64,000 nucleotides of DNA from Dictyostelium discoideum (taxonomy: Eukaryota), in assembly GCA_000004695.1 (NCBI GenBank), contig CM000155.2:768001-832000 (forward strand), read 5' to 3'. Position 1 is the stretch's first letter. Every line of letters begins with the position of its first letter. The position numbers were made by a program, and so were the translations under genes. Below, one piece after another: positions 13,062 to 21,107 of this stretch. The notes under the pieces are model-generated. The model was not told the origin of the DNA and ran no database searches. It saw only the letters and a program-made list of their open reading frames with translations.

Positions 13062-15638
13062 TTATTTAATAAAATCAATTAAAAAATTAATTTTAAATTC
13101 TTTTAATAAAAATGAATTATTATAAACAACATTATTTTTAATATAAACATTATTTGGAATTGTAAAACCATTTTTAATTGCATTACAAATTAAATCTTTA
13201 AATTGATTTAACATAAAATCAACGATTTCCAAATTTGTATTATCAATAGCTATAACAAATAATTGGAATAATTCTTTTTCACAATCAGTATAAACCCAAA
13301 TGAAATTTTTAGTTAAATATTTTAAAATTTCTAAATTTCCATTATAAACTGAAACTAAAAAGAATTTTCTAATCTCTGATATAATACCTTGAGAGATTGA
13401 AGTCATTCTCGAACCTGGTATAAACAAGTGTGATAATAAATGTGAAACAATTTCAATTTCACCTCTTTTAATAATATAATCTAGTAAGGAATAAACCACT
13501 AAATTTAATCCATGTTTTTTAATTAATTGATCAATTATTAATTTCTTATTCAAAATATATTCAACAACATTGCAATCACCATTACCATATTGATAAATAC
13601 AAATTAAGACATCAACAATCTCGGATTTATATCTATTATTATTAATATAATCAGGTCTATTATTTAATAAATAATGAATTTGTTTCAATTGATTTATTTT
13701 TAAAATATTTGATGGTGTGGAATATGAAAATTTAAAAGAATTTCTTGAATTTTTATGAGTATTTTCAACCAACCATATGAAATCATCAATTGATAAATCC
13801 ACTGGTAAATTATTCCAAATGTCTTGTATTATCGTATCGGTTTGTCTATCGGTATGATAATCTGTGAAATCATTCCAATTTGAAAAAATGAATTTTGAAG
13901 AATTTAATAATTTCACGGTATCAATACCATAGATAATAAAAGATAAATTAACCAATGATGTACTAATACACATTTGATATTCCTTTGGATAACTATTTTT
14001 AAAATGAAATGCTAAATGTGGTTGATATTTTAAAAATTTATGAAACAATTGTTGAATTTGTAAATCCACTGTAATGATTTCATTTTTATCATTTATCCTT
14101 TGTTTTATTGGGAATTTCTTAAACAATAAATCAAATACTTTTGGTGACTGGATTTTAATTGAAATTTTATTAACATCAAATACATTGAAAAATTTATATA
14201 GGTTACCACAACTACCTTTACCAATTAATAAATCAACAACTAATTGTAAATAATTGAAATTATCAATATTTATACAATAAAGTATAGTTTGAGTATTTAT
14301 TAAATATTTTTGATATTTATCAGTTATTTCATTTTTTGAATATTCACAAACTGCTTTCAAGAAATCTAATTGTTTTTCTTCTTCTTGTGGACAATATTCA
14401 AATATTTTAAATTGGACATTCTTTGAACATTTATGATTGAAACATGATACTTCACCATTTTTTAATATTAAATCTTCCTTTTTAAAAATACCAAATCTAT
14501 AAGATTTAAATAATAATGGTGATAAATTTGGTGAAATAAAAGATAGTCCTGTTGATGACAAGGATTGATGATGAAAGTATTTAGATTTATAAAATAAAAA
14601 ACTTTCAAACATACATTTTTCACCTTTTTTTCTATTAAAAATAATTAACATATTATATAATTTTCTAATCATATCATTTGATGATGGGAATTTATAAATT
14701 TCTAATTTTAAATTATTTTCATCATCATCATTAAAACAAAGTTTACATTTAATTTCATCCAATTCTTCAACTGATAATAATATATATTTTTCATTTAATA
14801 ATTGTTCAACCATAATTGAATTTTCACCTTTTAATTCATTTCTAATTAATGTTACATTTTCAATATTTGTTTGAAAATCATTAATATATTCTTGAATATA
14901 TGATTTTAAATAAATTATTGAATAACAACAATCCAATATTAATTTTAAAGGTTGTCTATAAATTTGAAAACTAAATAATCTACCACATGATAATAAAAGT
15001 GGATTGTTTTGTTGAATTTTTAATTTATTAATAAAGAAATCCAATGATTTACTTAAATCTTCATCTAACGGATTTAAAATTATTTTTGTAAATAAATTAC
15101 TAAGTTTATATGACCGGATTTCATTCTCTTTTAATGATAATAAATAAGCTGCAACTTGATATGACCCAATTTCAATTGAACTTTCAATTATACTATAATT
15201 AAATTGATGATTATACTCTTCAACCAATACTTGTATCAATGCAACATTATCAAATTCAATTGCAATCTTTTCCAAAAATGATGAATTCTTTTCAGTTGGT
15301 TTAAAATAATTTGGATAATTTAATAATAATTTTGAATAAAATATTTTATCATTTTTAAAATAATCAAATAAACATTTTTTTTTAATTTCTTTTAAAATTG
15401 ATCCTTTAAATACTAAATAACTACCTTCAATCACTTTCCACCATAAAAGGTATTGATAATTAAAATTTAATAACCATTCAACTTCAATAATTTGATTATA
15501 TTGAAAAACTCCAAATTTCATTGGTTCAATTATTTTAATATTTTTAAATATTAAATTTCTAATAAAACAATTTCTAAAAATAGACCAAAAATTATTTTCA
15601 TTTTCTCCATTATCTTTATAATTTTTTTTATTATTCAT
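13062..15638 (-). CDS. Hypothetical Asn/Ile/Lys-rich protein, 858 aa, single exon; no domain recognised.
   Basis: Long uninterrupted ORF with amoeba-typical composition and no internal low-complexity frame artefacts. The N-terminal motif FWSIFRNCFIRNLIFKNI may be an F-box-like or lineage-specific N-box. I cannot assign a family by eye. Confidence 0.5.
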   Translation of the reverse strand: MNNKKNYKDNGENENNFWSIFRNCFIRNLIFKNIKIIEPMKFGVFQYNQIIEVEWLLNFNYQYLLWWKVIEGSYLVFKGSILKEIKKKCLFDYFKNDKIFYSKLLLNYPNYFKPTEKNSSFLEKIAIEFDNVALIQVLVEEYNHQFNYSIIESSIEIGSYQVAAYLLSLKENEIRSYKLSNLFTKIILNPLDEDLSKSLDFFINKLKIQQNNPLLLSCGRLFSFQIYRQPLKLILDCCYSIIYLKSYIQEYINDFQTNIENVTLIRNELKGENSIMVEQLLNEKYILLSVEELDEIKCKLCFNDDDENNLKLEIYKFPSSNDMIRKLYNMLIIFNRKKGEKCMFESFLFYKSKYFHHQSLSSTGLSFISPNLSPLLFKSYRFGIFKKEDLILKNGEVSCFNHKCSKNVQFKIFEYCPQEEEKQLDFLKAVCEYSKNEITDKYQKYLINTQTILYCINIDNFNYLQLVVDLLIGKGSCGNLYKFFNVFDVNKISIKIQSPKVFDLLFKKFPIKQRINDKNEIITVDLQIQQLFHKFLKYQPHLAFHFKNSYPKEYQMCISTSLVNLSFIIYGIDTVKLLNSSKFIFSNWNDFTDYHTDRQTDTIIQDIWNNLPVDLSIDDFIWLVENTHKNSRNSFKFSYSTPSNILKINQLKQIHYLLNNRPDYINNNRYKSEIVDVLICIYQYGNGDCNVVEYILNKKLIIDQLIKKHGLNLVVYSLLDYIIKRGEIEIVSHLLSHLFIPGSRMTSISQGIISEIRKFFLVSVYNGNLEILKYLTKNFIWVYTDCEKELFQLFVIAIDNTNLEIVDFMLNQFKDLICNAIKNGFTIPNNVYIKNNVVYNNSFLLKEFKINFLIDFIK

Positions 15639-16432
15639 TTTTTTTTTTTTTTTTTTTAATTATTTATTATTTTAAAAATAATAATAATATAAATAATAAA
15701 GATATATATATATGAAAGTTGAGAGTTTTGTTTTTACCCTTTATAATAATAATTATTTTTTTTTTTTGGTGTTTTTTTTTGGGGGCCAAGAATAAAAAAT
15801 TAAAAAAAAAAAATTAACTTGCTATTATTATTATTATTATTAAAAAACAAAAATAAAAATTAAAAAATAAAAATAATAATGATGGATGTGTGTGGTATTA
15901 TTACAATTTTTCTCAATAAATCAAAAAAATGCTTGTGGTGTGTTTTTTTTTTTTTTTTTTTCTAATTTGAGATATATGGGTTTTTTATTTTTTTTTTTTA
16001 TTCAAAAATGTAAAATCAAACACAACCACCTTTTTTTTTTTTTTTAATTATTTTTATTATTTTTTTTTTTTATTTATTTGGGAGTTAAAAAAATAAGAAT
16101 AGTAATTAGAAAATTATAAATCATTAGATCCGGATAAGACCTATTTTTTATTTTTTATTTTTTATTTTTTTTTTTTCAATATATTTTAAACTGAAGGTAA
16201 TGGGAAAAATAATCTTTTTTTTATTTTAATTTTATTAAATTCCAAAAAAAAAAAAAAAATTAAAAATCAAGATACTTTTTTATTTGATTTTTTTTTTTAT
16301 TTTTTTATTTTTTTATTTTTAATTTTTTTAATTAATTGTTGGTTTAACAACATTCTTTAAAACTCTTCTAATATCACGAACTAGGATTAAATTATTATTA
16401 TTTTTTTTTTTTTTTAAAAAAAAGATTAGAAA

Positions 16433-16445
16433 TTAGATCTTTGGA

Positions 16446-16478
<33 letters not shown>

Positions 16479-18499
16479 ACAAAAATATACTTACTTTTAT
16501 GAGCAAAATGTTGAATATTAGTTTGTTTATTTTGTTTAAAATCAATTTGATAAGCCCAAGCACCAGATTTAACAGAACGAACATCAGTATATGGATTAGT
16601 TAACCATTCTTGATAAGCTTCTTCTACTACTTTACTAGCATCATTATCATAGTCATTCCAAGTTCCATGTAAATATTGCCATACTGGGACTTCCTTTGGT
16701 TTTTCAATTTCACCAGAAACTTCAACACCTAAACGGAAACGATGATCTAAAGCCAATAACCAAACGCAACAATTCTTTACATAACGACCAGTACCAGCGG
16801 AAAAGAATTGAGCAAACAATTTAGTGAAACCACTATCAATGACAACACGACCACAATTTGCGTCGACTTTAGTTGGATCGGTTGAACTGACCAACATGAT
16901 TTTATTACCTTGGGAAGAGGAGGCTAAAACCTCCAATTTTCCATTGGCAGGGGTGATATCAGCGAATGAGGAGATGGTGACACCTTCGTAGAGATTAACG
17001 ATACCACTGGTAACCAAATGGCTTGAGAAATGTTGTTTATCCAAACCATTACCAAGTGTAAGGTCTTGTTTACCTGGTTCGTTACCATCGGCAACTACAC
17101 CATATAATCTCTTTGTCACCCAATTACCTTGTAAAATATATGGTGCATTGTCATTCCAAATGAATAAACCTTTACCAACCTTATGATATTCTTCAACTTT
17201 ATCAGCAAACTCTTGTTCAGTTGTACTATTATCATTGACATAACCAGAGATAATCAATGCAATATCAGATTGTGGTAACTTGTTAATGAAATCCTTTTGA
17301 GTGAGTGCTTCAACGATTTGGAAACCTTTGGATTTCAAATCTTTAATACATTCAAGGTCTGATGCACTGTAGAATCTACCAATGAGGATTGTAAATTGTG
17401 TGAATGCACCTTCAACACCTAAATCATGTTCAACACCTTTTGGATTTGAATATTGATCAAGTTCAACATTGGTATTAATATGTGTACCTGCATTCTCTGT
17501 ATAATAATGAACAATACTTGATCCTTTTTTAATTGGTTGAAAGAATGATGGTTGTTTCATTACTGATTTTGGTGGTGCAGTAGTGGCAGTGGTGGTAGTG
17601 GCGGTGGCAGTGGTAGCAGCAGCAGTGGTGGTGGTTGCAGCAGCAGTGGTGGTGGCTTTTTTAGTTGATTTCTTTGATTTTGGTTTAGCATTTGCTGCTC
17701 TTTTCTTTGGAGTACCATCTTCTTTTTCTTCATCAGTATCACCACCTTCATTTTCTTCTTCATCATCATCTGATTCACCTAATAAACCCAATGTCTTTGC
17801 TTTTTCCATTGCTTTCTTTTGCATGTATCTAACAAATTCATCCATTTCAATTGTACCATTACCATTTTCATCACATTCATTTAAAATTTTATCAATTCTT
17901 CTTGTTAATGGTCTTTTACCCATAGCACGAATAACAGCTAAAAATAAAAAAATACACATACACATATATTAGTATTTTTTTAAAAAAAAATAATAAATAA
18001 ATAAAAAAATAAATAAATAATTACATTTTAATTCATCAGCACCAATAGTTTTACCATTTCTAGAGAATAATCTAAAAATCATTTCTAATTGTTGTTCAGT
18101 TGGACCAGTGTAATCATTACCAAGTAAATTAAATAAAGAAGCTTGTCTTTGTTTAGTATTTGAAATTAAATCTAAAGCTTCTCTAGCCTTCTTTCTAATT
18201 CTAGTTTCAATATATTTTGGTGGTTGAGTAGTATCAACTTCTTTTCTTTTATTGTTTGGTGGTGAGTTGGTTGAAACTGTTGTTGATGTAGTTGTGTTAG
18301 CAGCTGCAGTTGTAGTTTGACCATTTGATGATGTACTTTCAGTGGATGAAGTAGTTGGTGCAGTGGTTGTTGATGTTGAAGCTGAAGTATTATCAGTTGA
18401 TGTTGATGTTGATGTTGATGTAGTATTAGTAGCAGTGTTAGTGGCTTCAGTTGCTACATCTGTGTTTGTGATTGATTCAATATTTTGTTGTTCTGTTGA

Positions 18500-18502
<3 letters not shown>
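16433..18502 (-). CDS. EF-hand-pair + central domain of unknown function + C-terminal WWE-domain protein, ~660 aa. Two exons: join(18025..18502,16433..17937) on the minus strand.
   Basis: Exon 1 (MSTEQQN... Thr/Ser-rich ... EQQLEMIFRLFSRNGKTIGADELK) ends in phase 1 at a GTAATT donor. The TTTTTAG acceptor gives ...S VIRAMGKRPLTRRIDKILNECDENGNGTIEMDEFVRYMQKK. DENGNGTIEMDE is a canonical 12-residue EF loop, paired with a degenerate first loop. An acidic DDDEEENE linker and a Thr/Ala-rich linker follow. The C-terminus VWQYLHGTWNDYDNDASKVVEEAYQEWLTNPYTDVRSVKSGAWAYQIDFKQNKQTNIQHFAHK fits the WWE (poly-ADP-ribose/iso-ADP-ribose-binding) consensus W..W...Y......E.A.......Y.IDF..Q.N. Confidence 0.7.
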
Positions 18503-18530
<28 letters not shown>

Positions 18531-18700
18531 CAAAAATAAATTACTATTATCTGTTTATTTAAAAAAAAAAAATAACCGTTATGAAATTATATAATATATT
18601 TTTAGAATAAAGAGAAAAAAAAATAATGAAAATAAAAAAAAAAAAAATTATGAAAATAAAAAACAGTTAAGATATTTTTTTTTATGATTATAATAATATT

Positions 18701-18742
<42 letters not shown>

Positions 18743-19014: not shown

Positions 19015-19415
19015 TTATAGTTGATGAACAGTCGAAGATTTTTCTTCCTTTTTAGCGATAATTACAACTACACCATCCCTTTTACCAACGGTTGAAGCAG
19101 CTATTGGAGAGGATAATCTAATAACCTTTGAAAAATGACCTTCTTGAATATCAGTTTGTCTACAATTTACTTGAGTATTTGGTACAGAGATTTCTGAACC
19201 GTTTGGAATTTGAATAGTATCTGGTAATGAGATAATACCTTCTAAAATGATATCCATTTGATTGACAGTGATTTTTAAAGCATTTGGTTTATAGAATGGT
19301 ATAAAAGCATAGATTATAAATGATTCACTAGTTTCAGTTACATTAACAGGAATACTATTCTGTTTAAAAAAGTTTACACAACTATTACCACCAATAGTAT
19401 TATTTTGTTTGTTTA

Positions 19416-19452
<37 letters not shown>

Positions 19453-21107
19453 ACCATTTTTCATATTATTATTATTATTATTGTCACATGTTGTTGTAGT
19501 TGTAGTATTTTTATTACCACCACCACCTATAATTGAATTTGAAAATACACTGCCACCACCACTATTTACACCAATACCATCTAATCCATTACCATCGGAA
19601 AACATTGAACCATTATTATTATTATTACTATTATTACTACTATTTGCTAATAAACTTAAAGCTGGTGATGGTGATGCTAAAGTACCCCCACCAATTGGGA
19701 TCACTGTACCAGTTCCTCCAATGGTATAACTATTGTTCACTGCAAATTCACTATCATCAATAGTTGTGTAAGTTCTCTTATTTATTGATTTAATATCACG
19801 TAATTCACTTTCCCATCTTGCCAACTCATCATGAGTGAAAGCCCAATCTGGATGACTATTTTTAAAATCTACACCATAGTTTTTCTGTTGTAACTCACTA
19901 CTATGAATAAATTCAATAAATGGTAACAATGATGCATACTTTATACATGTTAAAAATGCATCATGATTATTAAGTAAACCATTTGAAACATCATGATTCT
20001 TTCTCTTTTTTCTCTTTTTAACATCATTTTTTGATGTTGATCTTTCATTTTCTGCTGATGCAATATAATCTTTAATTGAACCCTATTATTATTTGAGTTT
20101 TTATTAATATATACATTACATTATTATTATTATTTTATAAAAAATATACATACTTCATCTAAATTTTGAAATATAAAAGTATAAACAGCACCACATAAAT
20201 TTGCCATATCATTTGGTTGTTTATATCTTTTATCTAATGAAATTTTATTTGTATATAAAGAGAGTACAGTACTTCTTGGTACACTTGGATTCTTTTTACC
20301 TGGTACAACTCTAAAGTAGAAAGCGAGGAATGTCAATGCTTCCTTTTTCTTATCATCACCATTACCAATTTTAATATCTTGTGAAACTGGTCTAAGATTT
20401 CTTTGTTGAATTAATAATTGTGCTGTAAATACTGGTTGTTCCATTTGTAAATGATTATTTGAATATAGTGGTAAAACTACTGGTGGTGGTGGTGGTGGTT
20501 GTGGTGGTGTTGAATAATGATATTCAATAATTTCTTGTTGTTGTTGTTGTTGTTGAGTCGTATCAGTCGTAAATTGAGCTTGTAATGTTTCTTGTTGCTG
20601 TTGTTGTTGTTGTTGTGGTTGTTGTTCTTCTTCTTGATTTTCTTTTAATTCCTGCTGTTGCTGTTGTGGTTGTAGTTGTTGTTGATGTTGTGGTTGTTGT
20701 GAATTTTGTGAATGTTGTGATAATAAATCAGAGAAAGATGGTAGTGGTGATTCTACTGTTAGTTTAACAGATTGATCAACAACTTGGTATTGGTGATCAT
20801 GATCTGAGAGTTTTTGTTTTTTTAATCTTTGTTCGTCATCATCATTATCATTATCTCCATTGGATTGTGCATCAATGCTATTTATTGTATCTTTTACTTC
20901 TTTGGCTTGTTGTTGTTGTAGTTGTTGTTGTAGTTGTAGTTGTTGTTGCTGTTGTTGGAGGAGGATATTTGAAATACTACCACTACTGCTAATACTGTTG
21001 GTATCTTTATCTTTACCATCTTTACTCATAAATAAATAAAGTGGAGAATTTTGTTCGAGTAAATTTGGTGTTTCGATAGCATCCATTAAAAATGCACTTT
21101 CTTCCAT
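19015..21107 (-). CDS. Poly-Gln/Pro-rich protein with a C-terminal HSP20/p23(CS)-like beta-sandwich candidate, ~673 aa. Two exons: join(20154..21107,19015..20082) on the minus strand.
   Basis: Exon 1 (MEESAFLMDAIETPNLLEQ... polyQ ... ANLCGAVYTFIFQNLDE) ends in phase 0 at a GTATGT donor. The AATAG acceptor continues GSIKDYIASAENERSTSKNDVKKRKKRKNHD... (basic NLS-like) ...LLPFIEFIHSSELQQ. The C-terminal block ETSESFIIYAFIPFYKPNALKITVNQMDIILEGIIS...HFSKVIRLSSPIAASTVGKRDGVVVI resembles alpha-crystallin/CS-domain strands. The family call is weak. Confidence 0.5.

What the first reader, a model, noticed from the sequence alone, without database searches (positions are those of the whole stretch)
16433..18502. 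Unusual domain architecture: EF-hand pair + unknown ~300-aa domain + WWE (poly-ADP-ribose reader)
WWE domains are known as iso-ADP-ribose/PAR-binding modules. They occur almost only with E3-ligase domains (RNF146, Deltex, HUWE1, TRIP12) or PARP catalytic domains. Here the C-terminal WWE (VWQYLHGTWNDYDNDASKVVEEAYQEW...AYQIDFKQNKQTNIQH) has neither. It is fused to an N-terminal Ca2+-binding EF-hand pair (canonical loop DENGNGTIEMDE) and a central ~300-residue region (HYYTENAGTHINT...CGRVVIDSGFTKLFAQFFSAGTGRYVKNCCVWLLALDHRF) that I cannot place in any family. That suggests a calcium-regulated PAR-reader with an undescribed effector or enzymatic domain. The two-exon structure is not in the ORF track and was built from a phase-1 GTAATT donor and TTTTTAG acceptor.
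Basis: partly seen in the sequence, partly recalled or inferred. Interest (0 to 1): 0.7.

Follow-up and report, generated by a model that had tools for sequence, protein, structure and literature searches.

The report
EF-hand, amidotransferase-like, WWE domain protein
This is an uncharacterised Dictyostelium gene (DDB_G0291810) whose protein joins a calcium-binding EF-hand pair and an ADP-ribose-reading WWE domain to a conserved but uncatalogued domain with a glutamine-amidotransferase-like fold, so the unusual architecture is real but what the protein does is still unknown.

Summary
The gene has three exons, not two: 18502..18025, 17937..16495 and 16380..16328, minus strand. The 657-aa product is identical to the annotated D. 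discoideum AX4 hypothetical protein DDB_G0291810 (XP_629942.1, Q54E45). The missed exon 3 completes the WWE domain.

- **WWE:** Pfam E=3.4e-12 over the full model length. The adenine and phosphate pocket residues are conserved.
- **EF-hand pair:** real, but only loop 2 is canonical.

The central domain defines a large family of at least 688 cluster representatives. In bacteria it is mostly a stand-alone, often secreted, ~300-aa protein. In protists it is fused to EF-hands, WWE, vWA, ubiquitin, HSP70, TerD and other domains.

The EF-hand–X–WWE cassette is conserved in Amoebozoa and in Rigifila. The architecture is unusual and conserved, but not unique to this gene.

My best reading is a Ca2+-modulated reader of ADP-ribose or poly-ADP-ribose, with the GIFT/ThuA-like domain as its output. 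That function is inferred, not shown.

The parts
18025..18502 (-). Exon 1 (codons 1-159 plus 1 nt). It encodes a Thr/Ser-rich low-complexity N-terminus, basic NLS-like stretches, a conserved helix (YIETRIRKKAREALDLIS...) and the first, degenerate EF-hand loop.
   Evidence: The spliced product is an exact match to XP_629942.1.
17938..18024 (-). Intron 1, phase 1, GTAATT...TTTTTAG, 87 nt, 8% GC.
16495..17937 (-). Exon 2 (residues 160-640). It encodes the second, canonical EF-hand, an acidic/basic/poly-Thr-Ala linker, the central GATase1-like domain and most of the WWE domain.
17902..18094 (-). EF-hand pair (residues 137-200), spanning intron 1. Loop 1 (SRNGKTIGADE) is degenerate. Loop 2 (DENGNGTIEMDE, residues 182-193) is canonical.
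   Evidence: Pfam EF-hand_6 scores 29 bits and EF-hand_1 25.8 bits, both above their cutoffs. EF-hand_7 scores 29.3 bits against a cutoff of 30. Calmodulin and troponin C match with E about 2e-17 for the whole chain and about 1e-7 per stretch. The PROSITE-type EF-hand loop pattern matches only at residue 182.
16691..17569 (-). Central domain 'X' (residues 283-575). It has a class I glutamine-amidotransferase-like fold nearest to the ThuA and GIFT groups. Family-invariant residues are D320, N324, D331, K363, S390, W420, D422, N423, P425, H466, E477, T480, R523, D527, T531, R544, N548 and W552. There is no conserved cysteine.
16381..16494 (-). Intron 2, phase 1, GTAAGT...CCTAG, 114 nt, 11% GC.
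   Evidence: The homologue P0001 reads ...HTVRDIRRI across the junction.
16328..16380 (-). Exon 3 (residues 641-657, IRDIRRVLKNVVKPTIN, plus the stop codon). It forms the last strand of the WWE domain and includes Arg642.
   Evidence: With this exon the Pfam WWE match covers model positions 2-67 of 67.
16361..16684 (-). WWE domain (residues 578-646), spanning intron 2. Pocket residues are Y581, Y622, Q631, N633 and R642.
   Evidence: Pfam E=3.4e-12. A profile of this family's WWE domains matches DTX1 WWE2 (1.2e-6), ZAP WWE2, TRIP12 and PARP11.

Best explanation
DDB_G0291810 encodes a soluble, modular signalling protein. All functional roles below are inferred; only the domains and their conservation are shown.

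- **Targeting module:** the C-terminal WWE domain most likely binds an ADP-ribose-containing ligand. Candidates are the iso-ADP-ribose or ADP-ribose units of poly-ADP-ribose, or a related adenine nucleotide.
- **Modulator:** a half-calmodulin-like EF-hand pair with one canonical Ca2+ site.
- **Output module:** the central domain X. It is a new family within the class I glutamine-amidotransferase-like fold, closest to the ThuA and GIFT (IFT52, OST48) branch. It is not a glutamine amidotransferase, because the family has no conserved cysteine.
- **Likely pocket:** family-invariant polar residues fall at the topological positions that make up the active site in this fold. S390 follows strand 3, D422-N423 sit on the elbow after strand 4, and H466 and E477 follow. 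R523, D527, R544 and N548 are also invariant. This suggests a ligand-binding or hydrolytic pocket.

Shown: the gene model, the three domains, the fold, the absence of the catalytic cysteine, and conservation of the cassette and of the WWE pocket residues. Inferred: ADP-ribose binding, Ca2+ regulation, and any activity or partner of X.

The confidence of 0.45 is for the functional reading. The anatomy itself (three exons, EF-hand pair, GATase1-like domain, WWE) I hold at about 0.9.
For: - **Gene model:** exact match to XP_629942.1.
- **WWE:** E=3.4e-12. The residues aligned with the conserved adenine-binding Gln, the stacking aromatic, and the phosphate-binding Tyr and Arg described in PMC11269756 are invariant in seven family members. 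These are Y/F581, Y622, Q631-x-N633 and R642.
- **EF-hand:**
- **Fold of X:**. Faint sequence signal points the same way: ThuA (PF06283, best E=3.4e-6) in 2 of 66 relatives, though I did not check that those hits overlap X, and IFT52_GIFT (E=9e-4) in 1 of 35.
- **Invariant residues** are retained between bacteria and Dictyostelium at about 30% identity.
- **Cassette order is fixed:** EF-hand(s), then X, then WWE, with the WWE 0-20 residues after X in 19 proteins. These include dictyostelids and Rigifila ramosa.
- **Ca2+-linked partners recur:** EF-hands are fused to X in 19 of 66 relatives and TerD in 5 of 66.
Against: - No biochemical data exist, and no paper in the searched library mentions the gene.
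- The closest structural relatives (IFT52 GIFT, OST48) are non-catalytic scaffolds, so X may have no enzymatic activity.
- Most bacterial homologues carry a signal peptide or membrane anchor (74 of 104 by a crude test). The ancestral ligand of X therefore cannot be poly-ADP-ribose.
- Dictyostelid short paralogues have lost the otherwise invariant Trp of the W-D motif (F537) and G421.
- EF-hand loop 1 is degenerate, so Ca2+ affinity and any switching are uncertain.
- Some WWE domains bind ADP-ribose or ATP rather than iso-ADP-ribose, or bind only weakly (PMC11269756).
- I could not inspect the model coordinates, so the clustering of the invariant residues in 3D is unverified.
Confidence: 0.45

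Rival explanations
1. X is a non-catalytic scaffold or adaptor domain, like the GIFT domains of IFT52 and OST48. The protein would be a pure adaptor that bridges ADP-ribosylated targets to a protein partner, possibly a vWA-domain protein, under Ca2+ control.
For: - The top structural matches are scaffolding GIFT domains.
- Dictyostelid long paralogues fuse vWA, with or without ubiquitin, to the same EF-X-WWE cassette.
- The Acytostelium vWA is specifically similar (BLASTP E=2e-8) to a vWA_4 protein encoded two genes upstream of X in Mucilaginibacter.
- X is also fused to HSP70, ubiquitin and TROVE, which are protein- or RNA-handling modules.
Against: - In a systematic sample of 80 bacterial loci, a vWA gene lay near X in only 3, and no universal operon partner was found.
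- About 20 polar residues stay invariant across bacteria and eukaryotes, which is more typical of a small-ligand or catalytic site than of a protein-docking surface.
Confidence: 0.3
2. X is an active hydrolase (amidase, esterase or glycosidase type) with a non-cysteine active site. The WWE domain brings it to ADP-ribosylated substrates, making the protein a Ca2+-modulated eraser or processor rather than a reader or adaptor.
For: - The fold family is rich in hydrolases and transferases, including GATases, MetA and gamma-glutamyl hydrolase.
- Invariant Ser, Asp/Asn, His and Glu residues sit at the strand-end positions used by active sites in this fold.
- The WWE follows X directly, with no linker.
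Against: - There is no nucleophile cysteine and no conserved cysteine anywhere in the family.
- The proposed residues have not been shown to be close in space.
- The nearest relatives are either inactive or of unknown activity.
- Secreted bacterial homologues cannot act on intracellular ADP-ribosylation.
Confidence: 0.25
3. The WWE domain here does not read poly-ADP-ribose. It binds another adenine nucleotide or a protein, and the gene works in a Ca2+ or stress pathway unrelated to ADP-ribosylation.
For: - WWE domains differ in ligand preference among iso-ADP-ribose, ADP-ribose, ADP and ATP (PMC11269756).
- The loop that holds the distal phosphate of iso-ADP-ribose in RNF146 (residues 107-114) is two residues shorter here. 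This alignment rests on my recalled RNF146 sequence.
- X is also fused to TerD, which Kaur et al. (PMC7159879) propose recognises specialised nucleotide derivatives.
Against: The adenine and proximal-phosphate pocket is fully conserved. Dictyostelium has an active ADP-ribosylation system (PMC5087659, abstract only).
Confidence: 0.2

Closest known systems
RNF146/Iduna and other WWE-domain PAR readers (HUWE1, TRIP12, Deltex, PARP11-14, ZAP)
   Same: A WWE domain with the conserved adenine-binding Gln, stacking aromatic, and phosphate-binding Tyr and Arg (PMC11269756). As in RNF146, the stacking residue is Tyr (Y581).
   Different: There is no RING, HECT or PARP domain. The WWE is C-terminal to a GATase1-like domain, and an EF-hand pair sits upstream. 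The distal-phosphate loop is shorter than in RNF146.
DDHD2 and VPS13A/C (WWE domains joined to non-E3, non-PARP modules)
   Same: They set a precedent for WWE coupled to an enzyme or transfer module outside ubiquitination and PARP catalysis (PMC11269756, PMC7613979).
   Different: The partner domains are different (lipase, lipid-transfer bridge), and there is no Ca2+-binding module.
GIFT domains (IFT52 N-terminal domain, OST48/WBP1, GldG) and ThuA-like proteins (1T0B, STM3548 2GK3)
   Different: Identity is only 10-15%, and this protein has no Pfam hit. X has its own motifs: NPxGxxYDLGxDGAF, IWGDNDPY, HLITTGxxxLYEGxTI and GRxxxDxGFTKLxxxWDxAGTxRYVxN.
Calmodulin / troponin C
   Same: One EF-hand pair (a single lobe) with a canonical 12-residue loop.
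   Different: There is only one lobe. Loop 1 is shortened in D. discoideum. The pair is embedded in a 657-aa multidomain protein. UniProt's automatic name 'Calmodulin' is misleading.
HSP70- and GTPase-centred bacterial conflict systems (Kaur et al. 2020, PMC7159879)
   Same: Some bacterial X genes lie beside HSP70, GrpE, TraG-like, small vWA, DO-GTPase2 and GAP1-N2 genes (L005, L009). HSP70-X fusions also exist.
   Different: Only a minority of loci look like this (HSP70 in 4 of 80, vWA in 3 of 80). In my term search of that paper (ThuA, amidotransferase, GIFT, WWE) I found no domain corresponding to X. The Dictyostelium gene is a single eukaryotic gene with no operon context.

Membership tests
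WWE domain (PF02825) | Profile match above the curated threshold over the full domain | tested here: met
   47 bits against a cutoff of 21.1, E=3.4e-12, model positions 2-67 of 67, residues 578-646. Full coverage needs exon 3.
WWE domain (PF02825) | Conserved ADP-ribose pocket: a Gln that hydrogen-bonds adenine, a stacking aromatic, and Tyr plus Arg on the proximal phosphate (PMC11269756) | tested here: met
   Y581, Y622, Q631 (Q-x-N633) and R642 align with these positions in TRIP12, DTX1, ZAP and PARP11. They are invariant in 7 family members, with Y or F at 581.
WWE domain (PF02825) | Actual binding of PAR, iso-ADP-ribose or ADP-ribose | not testable with these tools
   Needs ITC or fluorescence polarisation with recombinant residues 569-657.
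EF-hand pair | Profile match and similarity to calmodulin or troponin C lobes | tested here: met
   EF-hand_6 scores 29 bits (cutoff 25) and EF-hand_1 25.8 (cutoff 25.4). EF-hand_7 (the pair model) scores 29.3, just under its cutoff of 30. Calmodulin and troponin C stretches match at about 1e-7.
EF-hand pair | Canonical 12-residue Ca2+ loops in both hands | tested here: not met
   Loop 2 (DENGNGTIEMDE) is canonical. Loop 1 (SRNGKTIGADE) is one residue short and lacks the Asp ligands at positions 1 and 5. The loop pattern matches only at residue 182.
Class I glutamine amidotransferase (catalytic) | The GATase1 alpha/beta fold | tested here: met
Class I glutamine amidotransferase (catalytic) | Nucleophile Cys on the elbow after strand 4, as part of a Cys-His-Glu triad | tested here: not met
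   The elbow reads IW-N-D-N-A-P here and WGDNDP in the family consensus. No cysteine is conserved anywhere in the family.
ThuA (PF06283) and IFT52_GIFT (PF23355) | Profile match to the Pfam model | tested here: not met
   This protein has no hit at E<=1. ThuA hits 2 of 66 relatives (best E=3.4e-6) and IFT52_GIFT hits 1 of 35 (E=9e-4). The resemblance is at fold level only.
PAR-dependent E3 ligase (RNF146-like) or PARP | A RING, HECT or PARP catalytic domain in the same protein | tested here: not met
   No such Pfam hit at E<=1.

The most novel reading that the evidence does not exclude
Domain X is a previously unrecognised enzyme or small-ligand-sensor family of the GATase1-like fold. It would have a non-cysteine active site (an Asp/Asn elbow plus His and Glu) and would be shared by secreted bacterial proteins and intracellular protist signalling proteins. 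In the Amoebozoan EF-X-WWE cassette it would act as a Ca2+-gated processor of ADP-ribosylated substrates. That would make it a new class of ADP-ribose-directed effector, distinct from E3 ligases, macrodomains, PARG and ARH.
Probability: 0.15. Interest if true: 0.8.

Novelty: new variant of a known kind. Interest (0 to 1): 0.55.

Why it matters
WWE domains are known mainly as the link between poly-ADP-ribosylation and ubiquitination. A conserved cassette that couples a WWE domain with an intact pocket to a Ca2+ sensor and a different, highly conserved output domain would add a second kind of downstream response to ADP-ribose signalling. It sits in Dictyostelium, a genetically tractable organism used to study ADP-ribosylation in DNA repair (PMC5087659, abstract only). 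Separately, the central domain is a large family (at least 688 clusters at 50% identity) that is absent from Pfam, NCBIfam and PADLOC. It spans Bacteroidota, Myxococcota, Cyanobacteria, Actinobacteria and protists, and it deserves a family definition and a biochemical function.

Tried and rejected
- **Single-sequence AlphaFold** of residues 283-640 failed (pLDDT 32). I redid it with a 111-sequence alignment.
- **Sequence and profile searches of X against PDB** gave only spurious hits to de novo Rossmann designs.
- **NCBIfam and PADLOC** gave nothing meaningful.
- **The AFDB Foldseek library** was unavailable.
- **The BFVD viral library** gave only generic GATase-like hits.
- **A vWA partnership** looked promising from hand-picked loci: a vWA gene within 5 kb in L001, L007, L008 and L009. 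It did not hold in a systematic sample, where only 3 of 80 loci had one. I keep it only for the dictyostelid fusions.
- **A TerY-type triad** (vWA, PP2C phosphatase, kinase; recalled from my own knowledge of the Ter-system literature) was considered for L001. The middle 346-aa protein has no PP2C or any other Pfam hit.
- **Neighbour clustering in 80 loci** returned only generic signalling genes: histidine kinases, Ser/Thr kinase-TPR proteins and ECF sigma factors. There was no conserved operon.
- **Literature searches** for the gene ID and for this domain combination found nothing. The Wang et al. 2012 RNF146 paper is not held, so the pocket residues were taken from PMC11269756.
- **A pseudogene or mis-assembled ORF** was rejected. 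The product matches the reference protein exactly, and the orthologues are conserved.
Full report
**What is there.** The window is AT-rich eukaryotic DNA with 15-33% GC. On the minus strand, an ATG at 18502 opens a gene that the mechanical ORF list splits into two pieces.

| Feature | Coordinates | Details |
|---|---|---|
| Exon 1 | 18502..18025 | |
| Intron 1 | 18024..17938 | GTAATT...TTTTTAG, 87 nt, 8% GC, phase 1 |
| Exon 2 | 17937..16495 | |
| Intron 2 | 16494..16381 | GTAAGT...CCTAG, 114 nt, 11% GC, phase 1 |
| Exon 3 | 16380..16328 | ends in stop codon TAA |

The 657-aa product is present, residue for residue, in the public protein collection. It is D. discoideum AX4 'hypothetical protein DDB_G0291810' (XP_629942.1, UniProt Q54E45, auto-named 'Calmodulin').

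Its 3' end (16433) is a read-through into intron 2. The real C-terminus is ...HFAHK-IRDIRRVLKNVVKPTIN. An independent metagenomic homologue reads ...HTVRDIRRI at the same place.

**Domains.** Pfam finds a full-length WWE domain at residues 578-646 (E=3.4e-12, 47 bits against a cutoff of 21.1, model positions 2-67 of 67). It finds EF-hand matches at 137-200 and nothing between about 283 and 575, even at E<=1. Calmodulin and troponin C lobes align to residues 128-207.

Only loop 2 (DENGNGTIEMDE, 182-193) fits the canonical 12-residue Ca2+ loop. Loop 1 (SRNGKTIGADE) is a residue short and lacks the Asp ligands.

Among dictyostelid orthologues the degenerate loop alternates. D. purpureum, Acytostelium and P0237 keep a canonical loop 1 but have Lys at position 5 of loop 2. 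Each orthologue appears to keep one good site.

**The WWE pocket.** A profile built from seven WWE domains of this family hits four solved WWE domains:
- DTX1 WWE2 (E=1.2e-6)
- ZAP WWE2
- TRIP12
- PARP11

According to PMC11269756, all solved E3-type WWE domains hold the ligand in the same way. A conserved Gln makes a double hydrogen bond to adenine. An aromatic residue stacks on adenine (Trp in most, Tyr107 in RNF146). A conserved Tyr and Arg bind the proximal phosphate.

In the alignments these positions correspond to Q631 (in a Q-x-N motif), Y581, Y622 and R642. All are invariant in the family apart from Y/F at 581. The pocket looks competent, but ligand preference among iso-ADP-ribose, ADP-ribose and ATP cannot be read from sequence.

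**The central domain (X).** X is not an orphan. A full HMMER scan of 1.84 billion cluster representatives finds 688 relatives at E<=1e-3, and 75 at E<=1e-30.

Sixty-six longer relatives carry the following additional domains:

| Domain fused to X | Relatives (of 66) |
|---|---|
| EF-hands | 19 |
| WWE | 10 |
| HSP70 | 7 |
| TerD | 5 |
| Ubiquitin | 5 |
| vWA | 4 |
| Alpha-kinase, TROVE and others | 1 each |

A profile search of the larger database shows that most members are stand-alone ~300-aa bacterial 'hypothetical proteins' with no Pfam domain. A genome scan places them in Bacteroidota, Myxococcota, Cyanobacteria, Planctomycetota and Desulfobacterales, and annotated hits also include Actinobacteria.

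X has no match in Pfam, NCBIfam or PADLOC.

Foldseek agrees. X is therefore a class I GATase-like alpha/beta domain of the ThuA/GIFT kind.

X cannot be a conventional amidotransferase. The elbow after strand 4, where those enzymes carry the nucleophile Cys, reads IW(G/N)DN(D/A)P. No cysteine is conserved anywhere in the family.

About twenty polar residues are invariant from bacteria to Dictyostelium at about 30% overall identity. They include D320, N324, D331, S390, D422, N423, H466, E477, T480, R523, D527, T531, R544 and N548. Several sit at strand ends, where this fold builds its active sites. I could not check their clustering in space because the model coordinates are not exposed.

**Is the architecture conserved?** Yes. 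D. purpureum (DICPUDRAFT_33321), Acytostelium subglobosum and further dictyostelid or metagenomic sequences have the same EF-X-WWE order, with 56-69% identity in X. Rigifila ramosa, from a distant eukaryotic lineage, has it too.

Cavenderia, Heterostelium and Acytostelium also have long paralogues built as [ubiquitin]-vWA-EF-X-WWE. In all 19 WWE-bearing sequences the WWE follows X within 0-20 residues. The three parts therefore behave as one evolutionary unit.

**Bacterial context.**
- By a crude test, 74 of 104 bacterial homologues start with a signal peptide or membrane anchor.
- Some Bacteroidota carry three tandem copies (L006, L007).
- Hand-picked loci suggested links to small vWA proteins, Ser/Thr kinases and HSP70/GrpE/TraG-like/DO-GTPase2/GAP1-N2 conflict systems. 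These systems are described in PMC7159879.
- The Mucilaginibacter vWA_4 protein is specifically similar to the vWA of the Acytostelium long paralogue (E=2e-8).
- A systematic sample of 80 genome loci did not bear the vWA link out. vWA lay near X in 3 loci, HSP70 in 4 (including HSP70-X fusions in a cyanobacterial and a planctomycete locus; a further cyanobacterial locus has HSP70 ORFs next to X), and Ser/Thr kinases in 12. No operon partner was universal.

The bacterial data say that X is an old, mobile, often extracytoplasmic module. They do not reveal its ligand.

**Interpretation.** The best-supported reading is a modular protein with three roles. The WWE reads an ADP-ribose-type mark, the EF-hand pair provides one Ca2+ site, and X is the output.

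Whether X is a docking scaffold like its GIFT relatives or an enzyme or ligand sensor with a non-cysteine site is open. I rate these at roughly 0.30 and 0.25 as specific rivals.

The claim that WWE occurs 'almost only' with E3 ligases or PARPs is too strong. DDHD2 and VPS13A/C are known exceptions (PMC11269756, PMC7613979). No paper in the searched library mentions the gene or this domain combination.

**Verdict.** This is a real, conserved and uncharacterised architecture in an already annotated gene. The 'unplaceable' domain is a new family within a well-known fold, and the functional story remains inferred. It is moderately interesting as a lead for ADP-ribose signalling in Dictyostelium, and for defining a new, widespread domain family.

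Noticed in passing
window 17902-18094 (-); orthologues P0167, P0223, P0230, P0237, P0003: The two EF-hand loops degenerate reciprocally among dictyostelid orthologues. D. discoideum, P0003 and P0223 have a shortened loop 1 and a canonical loop 2. D. purpureum, Acytostelium and P0237 have a canonical loop 1 and Lys at position 5 of loop 2. Each orthologue seems to keep exactly one good Ca2+ site.
   Followed up: partly
L019 5105-7411, L055 4243-6702, L085: HSP70-X fusion proteins occur in a Pseudanabaena locus (L019) and a Planctomycetota locus (L055), flanked by further HSP70 paralogues. A Snowella locus (L085) has HSP70 ORFs next to X. A metagenomic HSP70-X fusion (P0032) looks the same.
   Followed up: partly
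L006 3357-6203; L007 6971-10867: Bacteroidota carry tandem triplications of signal-peptide-bearing X genes. In L007 they are interleaved with SIMPL-domain genes.
   Followed up: partly
L001 7139-13795: Mucilaginibacter oryzae has an operon-like row: vWA_4, an unknown 346-aa protein, a Ser/Thr kinase, X, an unknown 508-aa protein and DUF4407. It lies between NB-ARC/TPR genes and a MobC/relaxase/zeta-toxin mobile region. The 346-aa and 508-aa proteins have no Pfam family.
   Followed up: partly
window 18503-18531 and 18690-18740: Long homopolymer A/T tracts lie directly upstream of the start codon and further upstream. Another poly(A) run sits inside intron 2 (16440-16480).
   Followed up: no
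window 13062-15638 (-) and 19015-19929 (-): Two neighbouring ORFs. One is an 858-aa protein with a weak ankyrin-repeat signal (E=3.9e-5, below the Pfam cutoff). The other is a 304-aa poly-Asn-rich ORF with no Pfam hit. Neither has an evident link to the gene studied.
   Followed up: partly
protein cluster of DDB_G0291810: Another D. discoideum strain carries a 660-aa allele (KAM9956732.1). I presume this is a length polymorphism in one of the low-complexity Thr/Ser/Ala tracts, but I did not compare the sequences.
   Followed up: no
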